Of a DNA stretch of 52,974 nucleotides, positions 19,199 to 22,100 are shown one piece after another; positions within the stretch are counted from its first letter, which is position 1; the number at the start of each line of letters is the position of its first letter. Origin of the DNA: a virus (lineage: Duplodnaviria > Heunggongvirae > Uroviricota > Caudoviricetes); the IMG/VR virus record IMGVR_UViG_2802429234_000005, positions 1-52,974 of that record; one strand, written 5' to 3'. The position numbers are program-made.

Positions 19199-22100
19199 GC
19201 AAAACAAATGAGGTATAGGTTTTTCAGCACTGGCGTTTTTTTCGCGGGAAAGGTCTCGTATATCCTTTATCGCTCTCCCGAATTATAATGGAGACCAGTT
19301 ATGATTTCGGTGCTGTGTTTTTTGATACTATCGGAATAGTGCATTATTGGTGGGATTTTTTTGATGTTTCCTGGCAGGGGCTGATTATGCACTATCCCGA
19401 TGTTGTTAACATCACAAAATGAGGTGAGCCCCATGTGCGGGGGTGGTTTAAGTGGTTGTTTAGCGGGGAAACTACAGTATCTGATGGTATGTCAGGTATT
19501 TCGGGAGGCACCCGACACCTCACCTATATTATAATAATACTCTTCAGCACTTACTGATTTGACCACCGCCTTAACAGGCGGTTTTTTTTCGATAATTTGC
19601 AGAATTGTACGCTGAATAAGCATTACATCGTTAAATTTATAACTTATTCCGAATATGCTGTGCTTGCTTATTGTTAGTTTGCTTACATTTCTGTATCTTG
19701 CTGCACCGCAGGTTTTCCCTGTAACGACGCTTGTATGATGAATCATTTAAACTTTGTAATTTGCCAGCCAGTCTCTGGTGGCTGGCTTTTTTTTGCAAGG
19801 TGTTCCGATAGTTCTGTTCGTCAGACTGGATTCCCGCAGAACAAAAAGCCGTCACTAACTCATTGGGTAAGAGTGCATAACACATATTGTTGTTTTGTGG
19901 TGCAGGGTTCGAGTCCCCGGTGACGGTCCACTTGTAATGGTAAATATACTTTTAACAGGCTCGCTTCGGTGAGCATTTTGTATGAGTTTAATCCGGTTTA
20001 TATTGGCGAAAAAGGGCGCGGCTGTCGGATTAAAGCCGCGGGACAAAGTCCATGAAGAAGAATAAGTATCTGCCTCCTTCAGGAGACATGTTTATACTAC
20101 TAAGCATTTAGAATGGTTTAAATCCTCAGATTAACCTTAATTTCAGATAAGGCTTATTTCATTTTTTCGCGCACACCCGGCGCACATCAAAAACCACATA
20201 ACCTTTCAGGGGTGAGCTTACGGGATGATCAGTGTGACTTGAGCTGGTCACTCCGGGCGGAGGCTCATCCACTAAAAGGAAACGTCACGATGTTTGGGAT
20301 TTTCAAAAGAAAACCCGTAAGCCCATTGTTGAAATAAAGATGATGGAAAACTACGTGATAATGGGCGGCCGGTGGGTGTTTTCATGTGGCAAGAATCATT
20401 TTTCAGATTATTACAGTTGAAGTGATTTTATTCCTTGTTATTATACACCTGTCTTCTGGGAGAGTTATCTTATTCCCCGATAAGAATCCATATGAAGAGT
20501 AAAAATCGTTCAGGAAACAGGATCGCTGATTTGTAATTGGCTAGTCAGTGGCTGGAATCGCTCTGGCAGTAGATGAGACTCACTTATATTAAGTACTGAC
20601 GCTTTATTCGTGGTAAGTTTTCGTAACTGTCGCTTTTTGTTTTGTAATAAAAACAAAATATCACGGTGTTGGTGTTGTTATTTTACAATAGCGGGATGGT
20701 GTATTTTCGGTAGAAATGTTGTGTTTCTTTGGAGAGTCGGAAATACATCATTCCGGTGTTGTAAATAACACCAAAGAGATGTTTCCCGGTATGAGAGTGG
20801 TTTACATTGTTGCTTTTGGAACCACAATATCTGGCATAAAGTCAGATATTCAGGGAAGTCCGCAACATCTCAATTTCGCTACAATAAAAATGATTCATCT
20901 TCAGCATTGTTCAACCGCCGCACTAGGCGGTTTTTTTTGTGTTGAATTCAAAAAAATACACGGACACTGATAATGTCCGTGTGGCAATGCCATGTAAGTC
21001 AACGATGAATATGACGCAAAAAAAACGCGACCGTCGGATTAAGGTCGCTGGACAAAGTCCGTGAAACATAACGAATTTCCGTTCCTCCCCCCGTTCGGGA
21101 AGTGCAAAAAGTATATAAATTAATTTTTCTCGTTTAAACAGGAAAGTTAATCTGAATTTCTGGTAATCCTTATTCCCGTACATTAATTCTTCGCTTTTCA
21201 TATCAGACTATGTCACACAAAAGGCATTTGCGGATTCCTTCGATGGGATGTTGTTTTTTACGGGCCGCTGGTGGCCTTTTTTATTTACAGGAGAAAAAGT
21301 ATGTCTGAACCCTTATCCGGTTCCGGCACGGCTGCGGCGCTCGGCGGGGCGACGGTATTCGGGCTCTTTACCGGAACGGATTTCGGGATTGTGTTTGGTG
21401 CGTTCGCCGGGGCGTTATTTGTGGCAACGATACCGCAGGCGCTTTCAGCCTGGCGTGTGGCGGCGCATTTTCTGGTGTCGTTCATTATCGGCGTGCTGGG
21501 TGCAGAGGTTCTGGCATCCTGGCTGGTAAAGCATACAGGGTTTGACGGAGCGCCTGTCGACGCATTGTGTGCAGTGCTGGTGTCAGTGGTGTCGGTGAAG
21601 ATTCTGTCGTTCATCCACCAGCAGGATATTGCATCACTGGTGTCCGGTCTGTTCTCCCGCCTGCGGGGCGGAGGAGGCGGCAAATGTTAAGTAACCTTCC
21701 CGGATTGCTGAACGTGGCGTTATGCATGGTTATCGTGCTGACGCTCTTTTTTTATCGACGTAAAGATTCCACGCATAAACCGCTGATGTCATGGCTGGCT
21801 TGGCTGCTGATGCTGCTTTATGCCCTTGCGCCACTCAGCTATCTGTGTGGTCGTCTGTTAGCGGCGAACTGGCTGGTGGTGTTTTTTAATCTGCTGTTCT
21901 GCGTGCTGGTGATACGTGCACGTGGGAATGTTTCAAAAATCCTTGCATTACGAAGGTACTGAAATGAAGTCGAAAGATGAAATTTTTGACGAAGTTCTGG
22001 GAAAAGAGGGCGGTTACGTCAACCATCCGGATGATAAAGGTGGTCCGACCAAATGGGCATTACTGAAAAAGTCGCCCGGGCGCACGGATATCAGGGCGAT

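What the first reader, a model, noticed from the sequence alone, without database searches (positions are those of the whole stretch)
19200..21260. ORF-poor ~2 kb island between the tRNAs and the holin with multiple terminators, including two covarying minus-strand hairpins with an identical loop
This stretch has no convincing ORF but three plus-strand intrinsic terminators (19565, 19763, 20913; two share the stem ACCGCC/GGCGGT) and two minus-strand terminators about 1 kb apart (20017..20052, 21026..21060). The latter pair share ~45 nt of sequence, with an identical loop GTCGGATTAA (plus-strand reading) and the adjacent palindrome GGACAAAGTCC, while the stems differ by compensatory changes (GCGGC/GCCGC versus GCGACC/GGTCGC). 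Covariation implies selection on RNA structure, consistent with 3-prime ends of paralogous phage small RNAs or a repeated regulatory element.
Basis: seen in the sequence. Interest (0 to 1): 0.55.

Follow-up and report, generated by a model that had tools for sequence, protein, structure and literature searches.

The report
Unnamed prophage small-RNA gene family
The two matching minus-strand hairpins are the ends of two sister small-RNA genes from an apparently unnamed family that is common in E. coli lambda-like prophages and has a fixed but unannotated copy in E. coli K-12, where published data show an Hfq-bound transcript ending at exactly this structure.

Summary
Window 20009-20056 and 21018-21065 share a 48-nt module. 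On the minus strand it reads GGACUUUGUCC mini-hairpin, then a GC stem with an identical 10-nt loop (UUAAUCCGAC), then a U-tail.

The similarity runs about 120 nt further upstream. It covers a shared TTTAAA-17-TAnnnT promoter and an upstream element, and it flanks a divergent 5' part. These are therefore two paralogous sRNA genes of about 80-86 nt.

- **Distribution:** the module occurs in at least 118 viral contigs. Its 3' 45 nt occur in 5418 of 5426 complete E. coli genomes.
- **K-12 copy:** it lies between yodB and serU and is unannotated. Published Term-seq shows an "orphan" 3' end at 2043181 (+), and Hfq CLASH and RIL-seq contain the RNA.
- **Structure:** both helices covary, and G·U wobbles place the structure on the window's minus strand.
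- **Known families:** there is no Rfam match, and it is not PasA/C/D, AgvB or AsxR.
- **Rest of the island:** it also holds two STnc100-like plus-strand RNAs, which own two of the three plus-strand terminators. It holds a tRNA-like relic and a TerB gene stub, all inside an LT-II enterotoxin prophage.

Verdict: a real sRNA family of a known kind that I could not find named or curated. Targets and function are unknown. Interest is moderate.

The parts
20009..20088 (-). sRNA gene copy 1 (class I seed), about 80 nt. It has a 5' hairpin UGUCUCC-UGAA-GGAGGCA, a U/C-rich single strand GAUACUUAUUCUUCUUCAU, the mini-hairpin GGAC-UUU-GUCC, the terminator CGCGGCU-UUAAUCCGAC-AGCCGCG and a U5 tail. The 5' end is inferred from the promoter, not measured.
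   Evidence: 78.5 bits. The region is 92% identical in E. coli prophages.
20094..20122 (-). Predicted promoter of copy 1: -35 TTTAAA (20122..20117), 17-nt spacer, -10 TAGTAT (20099..20094).
   Evidence: The alignment with copy 2 is. Nearly all (59 of 61) of the unique family variants carry TTTAAAC plus a TAnnnT box at the same distance. It scores 8/12 to consensus, below the scan threshold.
20123..20160 (-). Conserved upstream element (GAAATAAGCCTTATCTGAAATTAAGGTTAATCTGAGGA). It is shared with copy 2, with the prophage relatives and with the K-12 core copy. Its role is unknown; it may be an UP element or an activator site.
21018..21103 (-). sRNA gene copy 2 (class III seed), about 86 nt. It has a 5' hairpin CUUCCC-GAAC..-GGGGGGAG, a middle part GGAACGGAAAUUCGUUAUGUUUCAC, the mini-hairpin GGAC-UUU-GUCC, the terminator GCGACC-UUAAUCCGAC-GGUCGC and a U8 tail.
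   Evidence: 72.3 bits. The same variant occurs only in the LT-II-type relatives L064, L103, L127 and L135-L140.
21110..21138 (-). Predicted promoter of copy 2: TTTAAA-17-TATACT.
   Evidence: Promoter scan (9/12). Aligned with the copy 1 promoter.
20951..20998 (-). Module 2, a diverged second copy of the mini-hairpin plus terminator (UGGC-AUU-GCCA, ACACGGAC-AUUAUCA-GUCCGUGU, U7). It lies about 20 nt downstream of the copy 2 terminator and acts as a tandem back-up terminator or long-form 3' end.
   Evidence: 23.2 bits, E 2.6e-5; minus-strand terminator 20982..20958. The same tandem arrangement, about 70 nt downstream, is present in most prophage relatives.
19395..19590 (+). STnc100-like plus-strand RNA A. 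It ends at the terminator ACCGCC-UUAACA-GGCGGU plus U8 and is preceded by a long hairpin at 19319-19412.
   Evidence: Rfam RF02076 gives 27.9 bits (gathering score 47), E 2.7e-4.
20672..20940 (+). Plus-strand RNA B, a paralogue of A. It has a long hairpin at 20672-20774 and the terminator AACCGCC-GCACUA-GGCGGUU plus U8.
   Evidence: Pairwise alignment with A, repeats D2 and D9. Rfam does not recognise it.
19763..19794 (+). Third plus-strand intrinsic terminator, GCCAGCC-AGUCUCUGGU-GGCUGGC plus U8. The upstream RNA is not identified. A degenerate copy lies at 20530-20555.
   Evidence: D5. There are only sub-threshold Rfam matches, driven by the terminator.
19849..19930 (+). tRNA-like relic with an encoded CCA, called tRNA-Tyr(ata) by ARAGORN only.
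   Evidence: No Rfam tRNA match. PGAP does not annotate it in the 92%-identical E. coli region.
20290..20352 (+). 5' stub of a TerB-family gene (MFGIFKRKPVSPLLK*). It marks the recombination junction between two ncRNA-island modules.
   Evidence: E. coli homology ends 62 nt into the annotated TerB CDS.

Best explanation
The two minus-strand hairpins are the intrinsic terminators of two paralogous small-RNA genes of about 80-86 nt. Both are transcribed against the direction of the phage late operon.

Each gene has:
- its own sigma-70-type promoter (TTTAAA-17-TAnnnT) and a conserved upstream element;
- a variable 5' part, made of a hairpin plus a single-stranded stretch that is the likely seed;
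- an invariant 3' scaffold, made of a 4-bp mini-hairpin abutting a 6-7-bp terminator with a conserved 10-nt loop, followed by a U-tail.

The most likely mechanism is that of an Hfq-associated, trans-acting base-pairing sRNA expressed from the prophage as a moron. The 3' scaffold would give termination, stability and Hfq binding. The exchangeable 5' part, and possibly the conserved loop, would select targets.

The family has at least four seed classes on one scaffold. One copy is fixed in the E. coli/Shigella chromosome next to serU, a phage attachment tRNA. It probably descends from an old prophage.

- **Shown here:** the gene anatomy, the paralogy, the covariation, the strand, the distribution, and the absence from curated families.
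- **Shown in the literature, for the K-12 homologue only:** a 3' end at the terminator and association with Hfq.
- **Inferred:** expression of the two window copies, the exact 5' ends, trans-acting regulation, and the targets.
For: - **Shared gene anatomy:** the two copies share it over about 170 nt. So do 61 unique relatives.
- **Structure in the main alignment:** the terminator stem has 3 pairs with compensatory changes and the 5' hairpin has 2. Cells paired are 91.7%, against 35-54% when partners are slid.
- **Structure with the tandem module 2 added:** 98.5% of cells are paired, and 5 of 11 pairs show double changes, 2 of them in the mini-hairpin.
- **Strand:** U·G wobbles (the K-12 top pair, and the 5' hairpin in 13 sequences) and the U-tails place the structure on the window's minus strand.
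- **Unselected set:** of 77 promoter-bearing relatives picked by the seed alone, 73 keep the mini-hairpin and loop exactly while the stems vary.
- **Distribution:** the 3' 45 nt occur in 5418 of 5426 complete E. coli genomes, and the full class I gene occurs in 369. Viral contigs with the module number at least 118.
- **K-12 homologue:** the Term-seq orphan 3' end at 2043181 (+) has this sequence. An Hfq CLASH chimera joins 2043157-2043181 with mreC. The node yodB.serU.IGR appears in Hfq RIL-seq.
- **Non-coding:** start codons are not conserved, 1-nt indels occur in the 5' hairpin, and a stop lies in the plus frame of the commonest class (inspection of the sequences).
Against: - There are no expression data for this prophage or for any prophage copy.
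- The K-12 RNA is weak in RIL-seq (33-39 chimeras, 1-2 partners). The classifier of Bar et al. gave it an sRNA probability of only 0.01-0.05.
- The CLASH evidence is a single interaction.
- The promoters are only consensus-level matches. The copy 1 promoter is below the scan threshold.
- No TSS was found in the one Cappable-seq supplement that could be searched.
- No convincing target was found inside the prophage.
- The commonest prophage class has a poor U-tract after module 1 (CUACUUUUC), so its main 3' end may be at module 2.
- The covariation comes from related sequences, and partly from an alignment fitted to the model.
Confidence: 0.65

Rival explanations
1. Cis-antisense regulator of the late operon. 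The RNA, or the act of transcribing it head-on against late transcription, damps leaky expression of the downstream TerB or holin lysis cassette (and here LT-II) in lysogens. It would act by transcriptional interference or by forming duplexes with read-through late mRNA that RNase III cleaves.
For: The position and orientation are conserved. The gene is always divergent from, and about 150 bp upstream of, a holin or TerB gene and antisense to the late transcript (window; L001, L002, L004, L133, L134). Perfect complementarity to the late transcript is a given.
Against: The chromosomal copy between yodB and serU has no lysis gene next to it. It is nevertheless kept in more than 99% of E. coli genomes with the promoter and scaffold intact. 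Seeds differ between classes while the scaffold is constant, which fits trans targeting better. Q-modified polymerase is expected to read through in any case.
Confidence: 0.15
2. The hairpins are only terminators or insulators. They would stop stray minus-strand transcription from the lysis region from running into the tRNA and Q region, and the RNA product would have no function.
For: The island is unusually rich in terminators on both strands (16 against 2.7 expected). Tandem double terminators are present.
Against: A dedicated conserved promoter sits about 80 nt upstream of each terminator. The 10-nt loop and the mini-hairpin are conserved far beyond what termination needs. The K-12 RNA is recovered on Hfq.
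Confidence: 0.08
3. Element of the plus strand or of the DNA. It could be a processing or structure signal in the late mRNA upstream of the lysis genes, or a recombination site, with the minus-strand features being incidental.
For: The hairpins are palindromic and also form in plus-strand RNA. The island is a recombination mosaic with duplicated modules.
Against: - U·G wobbles would become C·A mismatches on the plus strand.
- The U-tails follow the stems only on the minus strand.
- The plus-strand folds are not better than shuffles (z -1.3 and -0.6).
- The measured K-12 3' end is on the equivalent of the minus strand.
- The plus-strand reading frame through the module is closed by a stop in the commonest class (sequences).
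Confidence: 0.05
4. Antisense partner of a small plus-strand protein gene, in the manner of a type I toxin-antitoxin pair. In some relatives a 32-codon plus-strand ORF (MKNNKYWPPSGDMFILLSFRSGLNHQINLNFR) starts opposite the seed.
For: Three class I sub-lineages keep a 32-codon frame, with several synonymous differences (inspection of the sequences).
Against: - The ORF is cut to 19 codons in the window copy 1 and is frame-shifted in the L001 type.
- It is broken by a 1-nt indel in variant v5 (8 loci).
- It has no counterpart in class II (no start codon) and only an unrelated ~20-codon frame opposite class III; class IV was not examined.
- It lacks a good Shine-Dalgarno sequence and is not hydrophobic (sequences).
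Confidence: 0.04

Closest known systems
PasA/PasC prophage sRNAs of EPEC E2348/69 (Pearl Mizrahi et al. 2021, PMC8550237; Zhu, Shabalina & Storz 2026, bioRxiv 10.64898/2026.05.13.724894)
   Same: - They are Hfq-associated sRNAs encoded in lambdoid prophages, just upstream of the holin and on the strand opposite to the late genes.
- TerB is among their conserved neighbours.
- Family members share a conserved 3' end and diverge in the 5' 40 nt.
- Their seed unusually overlaps the terminator. The K-12 CLASH duplex of this family likewise involves the loop and the 3' stem.
   Different: There is no sequence similarity. blastn of window 19200-21300 against the PasA, PasC and PasD loci gives only 18-nt chance matches. 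The covariance model of the module finds nothing there. The terminators are unrelated (GCCAGC.../...GCTGGC). Pas genes are reported as largely restricted to pathogenic lineages, whereas this family has a near-universal chromosomal copy.
AgvB (RF02702) and AsxR (RF02703) anti-sRNAs and Esr41 (RF02676) of EHEC prophages (Tree et al. 2014, PMC4104026)
   Same: They are short Hfq-bound RNAs carried by lambdoid prophages (listed). A sponge role is one possible function for the RNAs described here.
   Different: There is no Rfam match to any of them, even at E <= 10, in 18700-21400. No evidence for sponge activity was obtained.
STnc100 (RF02076) / PasD
   Same: The plus-strand unit at 19395-19590 resembles STnc100 (27.9 bits, strong match over CGGGAGGCACCCGACACC). 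It sits in the Q-to-holin region, as described for PasD and STnc100.
   Different: The score is below the Rfam gathering score of 47. This concerns the plus-strand terminators only, not the two minus-strand hairpins. The second unit, at 20672-20940, is not recognised by Rfam at all.
Unnamed K-12 transcript: the orphan 3' end at 2043181 (+) (Adams et al. 2021), int-1073-1 (Iosub et al. 2020) and yodB.serU.IGR (Bar et al. 2021)
   Same: It is a true homologue. It has the same promoter, upstream element, mini-hairpin, terminator and loop, with one C-to-U change in the loop (68.1 bits).
   Different: It has a different 5' part or seed (GAAAUUCAACAACUCUUGGAAAUUAU). It is chromosomal rather than prophage-borne. 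It is not annotated in NC_000913.3.

Membership tests
Any curated Rfam family (release 15), for the minus-strand elements | Covariance-model score at or above the family's gathering score | tested here: not met
   No match covers 20009-20093 or 21018-21103, either at gathering scores or at E <= 10. The K-12 homologue also has none.
PasA/PasC | Alignable sequence and a shared 3' terminator module with E2348/69 PasA or PasC | tested here: not met
   blastn with word size 7 against L130-L132 gives only 18-nt chance hits. Model R1 finds no hit. The sequences were compared.
PasA/PasC | Location in a lambdoid prophage next to holin or TerB, on the strand opposite to the late genes | tested here: met
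   Window anatomy; relatives; the PasA context. This is positional analogy only.
Hfq-dependent trans-acting sRNA (general class) | Rho-independent terminator hairpin followed by a U-tail at the 3' end | tested here: met
   The tails are U5 (copy 1) and U8 (copy 2). The K-12 3' end was measured at the U-tract.
Hfq-dependent trans-acting sRNA (general class) | Own promoter, so an independent transcription unit | tested here: inconclusive
   A conserved TTTAAA-17-TAnnnT lies at a fixed distance in nearly all (59 of 61) variants. No TSS data were found.
Hfq-dependent trans-acting sRNA (general class) | Physical association with Hfq | not testable with these tools
   Literature evidence exists for the K-12 homologue only: a CLASH chimera and a RIL-seq node. 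There is nothing for the prophage copies.
Hfq-dependent trans-acting sRNA (general class) | Conserved single-stranded seed and demonstrable targets | tested here: inconclusive
   The class I stretch AYRCUUAUKMUUCUUCAY is conserved while the flanking hairpin varies. No target was identified.
STnc100 (RF02076), for the plus-strand unit 19395-19590 | Score at or above the gathering score of 47 bits | tested here: not met
   27.9 bits, E 2.7e-4. It resembles the family but is not a member by Rfam's criterion.
Type I toxin-antitoxin (antisense RNA plus small toxin ORF) | Conserved small ORF, usually hydrophobic, opposite the RNA | tested here: not met
   The plus-strand ORF is truncated, frame-shifted or absent in many members, including the window copy 1 and K-12. 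It is not hydrophobic (sequences).
tRNA, for 19849-19930 | Match to the Rfam tRNA model and a plausible anticodon | tested here: not met
   Called by ARAGORN only, with anticodon ATA. No RF00005 match.

The most novel reading that the evidence does not exclude
The family may be a plug-in sRNA scaffold. The invariant mini-hairpin and the 10-nt terminator loop would form a second functional site, either a pairing or kissing surface or a protein-binding site. The K-12 CLASH duplex with mreC, which uses the loop and the 3' stem, hints at this. Prophages would then swap 5' seeds onto this scaffold. Prophage copies would share, compete for or hijack the partner of the near-universal chromosomal copy. 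That would be phage-host regulatory mimicry built around an sRNA that is still unannotated in E. coli K-12.
Probability: 0.15. Interest if true: 0.7.

Novelty: new member of a known kind. Interest (0 to 1): 0.45.

Why it matters
Prophage-encoded sRNAs are a known way for phages to rewire host regulation. This family appears to be uncurated: it has no Rfam model, no gene name, and no hit for its sequence in 8 million full texts. Yet it is one of the more widespread ones. It has a near-universal copy in the E. coli/Shigella chromosome, several seed classes in lambdoid prophages, and two copies in an LT-II enterotoxin prophage just upstream of the lysis and toxin genes.

It gives a concrete, testable candidate for an unannotated K-12 sRNA, at about 2043091-2043181 (+). 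It also offers a natural experiment in how one 3' scaffold carries different seeds. It does not change how sRNAs are understood.

Tried and rejected
- **Rfam:** searched at gathering and at permissive thresholds on the island and on the K-12 locus. Nothing was found for the minus-strand genes.
- **PasA/C/D:** their loci were fetched from E2348/69 and compared by blastn and by covariance model. They are unrelated.
- **IpeX/DLP12 lead:** the K-12 DLP12 Q-nmpC-essD region has no copy of the module.
- **Plus-strand coding through the module (...RIKxAGQSP*):** rejected, because the commonest class has an in-frame TAG just upstream (sequences).
- **Minus-strand small ORFs (19 aa):** rejected, because the start codons are not conserved.
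- **Targets inside the prophage:** 20-nt complement searches with 3 mismatches found only the genes themselves. RNAduplex scans gave only patchy duplexes inside coding regions.
- **Literature:** no paper main text contains the sequence or "yodB-serU". The Melamed 2016 supplements are not held. No TSS turned up in the Cappable-seq supplement.
- **Recognisable regulator site in the upstream element (PhoP, IHF):** checked by eye only, with no convincing match.
- **Species spread:** the genome-contig scan with the exact module found only Escherichia and Shigella, plus one Bacillota MAG contig that looks like contamination. Spread beyond Escherichia was therefore not established.
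Full report
**Setting**

The window is a lambdoid prophage.
- A Q-like antiterminator gene (18035-18697; Pfam DUF1133 and Phage_antitermQ) is followed by a promoter-like site and by tRNA-Thr and tRNA-Gly (19045-19198).
- About 2.1 kb then passes without credible genes.
- Next come a Phage_holin_8 holin (21301-21690), a second holin and a frame-shifted GH108 endolysin.
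- After these lie the two subunits of a type II heat-labile enterotoxin (22631-23849).
- Region 18700-21400 is 100% identical to an E. coli draft assembly (GCA_002965705.1) and 99.2-99.6% identical to five other assemblies carrying the same LT-II prophage.
- In complete E. coli genomes only the first half of the island has close relatives (92% identity). There it lies between tRNA-Gly and a TerB-family gene.

**Checking the observation**

- The 48-nt repeat 20009-20056 / 21018-21065 is 81% identical, with an identical loop and an identical small palindrome.
- On the minus strand each copy folds into GGAC-UUU-GUCC, then a 6-7-bp GC stem with the loop UUAAUCCGAC, then a U-tail.
- The stems differ by two compensatory pair changes.
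- A covariance model of the module scores 78.5 and 72.3 bits in the window, against 23 bits for the next match.
- The three plus-strand terminators are real, and two of them share their stem.
- Terminator-like sites are about six-fold enriched over shuffles.
- The eight longest ORFs of the island match nothing in PHROGs, and the six of them also run against Pfam match nothing there.

**What the two hairpins belong to**

Aligning the two copies on the minus strand shows that the similarity runs about 120 nt further upstream.
- Both copies have TTTAAA, a 17-nt spacer and a TAnnnT box. The promoters are at 20122..20094 and 21138..21110, and the latter is also found by the promoter scan.
- Both have a conserved element further upstream.
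- Between promoter and 3' module the sequences differ. Copy 1 has a hairpin and the U/C-rich stretch GAUACUUAUUCUUCUUCAU. Copy 2 has a different hairpin and GGAACGGAAAUUCGUUAUGUUUCAC.

This is the anatomy of two paralogous sRNA genes of about 80 and 86 nt, with a common promoter and 3' scaffold and different seeds.

**Relatives**

Among species-representative genomes it found only Escherichia and Shigella.

The 61 unique gene variants nearly all (59 of 61) carry the same promoter. They fall into four seed classes on one scaffold:
- a common prophage class, with consensus AYRCUUAUKMUUCUUCAY after a variable hairpin;
- a chromosomal class;
- the window's copy 2 class, seen only in LT-II-type relatives;
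- a singleton, L040.

blastn of the copy 1 gene finds its 3' 45 nt in 5418 of 5426 complete E. coli genomes, and the whole gene in 369.

The near-universal copy lies between yodB and serU in K-12. It has its own TTTAAA-17-TATGAT promoter and the same upstream element. It is not annotated in NC_000913.3.

serU is a phage attachment tRNA. The SerU-LTIIb prophage record shows a phage copy and the chromosomal copy side by side. This fits an origin of the core copy from an old prophage, which is an inference.

In every annotated relative the gene is divergent from a holin or TerB gene about 150 bp away.

**Structure and strand**

On 32 distinct sequences:
- the terminator stem has three pairs with compensatory changes (G-C/A-U 29:3; C-G/U-A 24:8; C-G/U-A/U-G 11:6:3);
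- the 5' hairpin has two;
- 91.7% of cells pair, against 35-54% when partners are slid.

The mini-hairpin and loop were fixed by that search pattern, so two independent sets were used.

First, relatives were selected only by the seed. There were 77 with a promoter. Of these, 73 keep the mini-hairpin and loop exactly, one has two loop substitutions, and three are decayed. The upper stem pairs vary with compensation.

Second, the model revealed a diverged second module about 70 nt downstream of most prophage copies. In the window it is at 20951-20998, behind copy 2. There the mini-hairpin is GGACKUUGUCC or UGGCAUUGCCA and the terminator is different. With both modules aligned, 98.5% of cells pair and 5 of 11 pairs show double changes, two of them in the mini-hairpin. 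That alignment is fitted to the model, which favours the structure.

Three things place the structure on the window's minus strand:
- the U·G wobbles would be C·A on the other strand;
- the U-tails follow the stems only on this strand;
- the plus-strand folds are no better than shuffles.

**Coding potential**

Short ORFs on either strand are not conserved.
- Start codons come and go.
- One-nucleotide indels occur in the 5' hairpin.
- The plus-strand frame through the module is closed by a stop in the commonest class.
- A 32-codon plus-strand ORF opposite the seed survives in only some lineages and has no counterpart in K-12 or in the window's copy 2 class (class IV was not examined). It is cut to 19 codons in the window's copy 1 (sequences).

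**Experimental evidence from the literature (homologue only)**

- Adams et al. 2021 list an "orphan" Term-seq 3' end at MG1655 2043181 (+). Its flanking sequence is the K-12 module.
- Iosub et al. 2020 list an Hfq CLASH chimera between intergenic 2043157-2043181 (+) and mreC mRNA. The predicted duplex uses the loop and 3' stem, at -18.8 kcal/mol.
- Bar et al. 2021 list a node yodB.serU.IGR in Hfq RIL-seq with few partners and a low sRNA score.

A transcript therefore ends at this terminator on the predicted strand, and it is found on Hfq. It is weakly represented and unnamed. No main text in the library contains the sequence or names the locus.

**Comparison with known families**

- Rfam 15 has no match to the minus-strand genes at any threshold. 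AgvB, AsxR, Esr41 and IsrK are therefore excluded as families.
- PasA and PasC are the closest analogues. They have the same position and orientation next to the holin, a conserved 3' end with a variable 5' end, and a seed reaching into the terminator. They share no sequence with this family, and the model does not hit them.
- The plus-strand terminators at 19565 and 20913 end two paralogous plus-strand units. The first resembles STnc100 at 27.9 bits, below the gathering score of 47. The recent Pas survey describes STnc100 and PasD as typical of this phage region.

**The island as a whole**

It is a mosaic of non-coding genes:
- tRNA-Thr and tRNA-Gly;
- STnc100-like unit A;
- a terminator of unknown ownership;
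- a tRNA-like relic;
- sRNA copy 1;
- a 62-nt TerB stub, where homology with E. coli prophages stops;
- then a second module: a terminator relic, STnc100-like unit B, and sRNA copy 2 with its tandem module, abutting the holin.

The duplication looks like recombination between two versions of the same phage region (inference).

**Mechanism and confidence**

I put about 0.65 on the reading that these are expressed, Hfq-associated, trans-acting sRNAs carried as morons. The scaffold would provide termination, stability and Hfq binding. The 5' part would provide specificity.

The main rival, at 0.15, is a cis-antisense brake on late, lysis or toxin expression. The strict position supports it. The retention of the lysis-free chromosomal copy argues against it.

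Targets are unknown. Searches inside the prophage gave nothing convincing, and no whole host genome could be scanned.

**Verdict**

It is an apparently unnamed family of a well-known kind, with a neat modular design, an unusually conserved terminator loop, and an overlooked K-12 member. It is worth a wet-lab look but is not surprising in principle.

Noticed in passing
window 22631-23849: Genes for both subunits of a type II heat-labile enterotoxin (Enterotoxin_a and LT-IIB; the A subunit ends in KDEL) lie directly after the lysis cassette. The window is therefore an LT-II-converting lambdoid prophage. The same arrangement occurs in six assemblies.
   Followed up: partly
window 21916-22517: The GH108 endolysin is split into a 65-aa and a 154-aa ORF, an apparent frameshift. 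The identical split is called in L139, whereas L135-L138 have an intact 184-aa gene.
   Followed up: partly
window 19849-19930 (+): An 82-nt tRNA-like sequence with an encoded CCA. ARAGORN calls it tRNA-Tyr with the odd anticodon ATA. The Rfam tRNA model does not match, and PGAP does not annotate the 92%-identical E. coli region. It is probably a decayed tRNA gene.
   Followed up: partly
window 19319-19412 and 20672-20774 (+): Two long, nearly perfect hairpins (picked up as spurious miRNA-precursor matches) precede the two STnc100-like plus-strand units. The units are paralogous over about 340 nt.
   Followed up: partly
window 20290-20352 (+): A stub of a TerB-family gene (15 codons, then a stop). 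It sits exactly where homology to E. coli prophages ends, marking a recombination junction between two ncRNA-island modules.
   Followed up: partly
window 2544-2722 and 16282-16456 (+): Full-length Rfam matches to RalA (antitoxin RNA of RalR, 179.8 bits) and to sok (113.6 bits). The prophage therefore also carries a type I ralRA system and a hok/sok system.
   Followed up: no
window 21262-21277 (+): A terminator-like hairpin, GGGCCGCTGGTGGCCT plus T-run, lies only about 25 nt upstream of the holin start codon, within the late transcript. It resembles the terminator after the Q gene (repeat D6).
   Followed up: no
L004, L011, L014 and other class I prophage loci (sequences): Some class I relatives keep a 32-codon plus-strand ORF (MKNNKYWPPSGDMFILLSFRSGLNHQINLNFR) opposite the sRNA seed and promoter. 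It is truncated or frame-shifted in many others, including the window.
   Followed up: partly
L009 (JAEWTL010000060.1): A 6-kb contig of a MAG labelled Bacillota carries the E. coli/Shigella chromosomal yodB-serU sRNA allele, identical to Shigella L007 over the 188-nt stretch compared. This is probably contamination of the MAG.
   Followed up: no
L006, L010, L012, L051 versus L003/L005 (upstream of the core copy): The chromosomal yodB-serU copy exists in two alleles. Their sequence diverges completely beyond about 75 nt upstream of the -35 box, which suggests different flanking histories of the locus.
   Followed up: no
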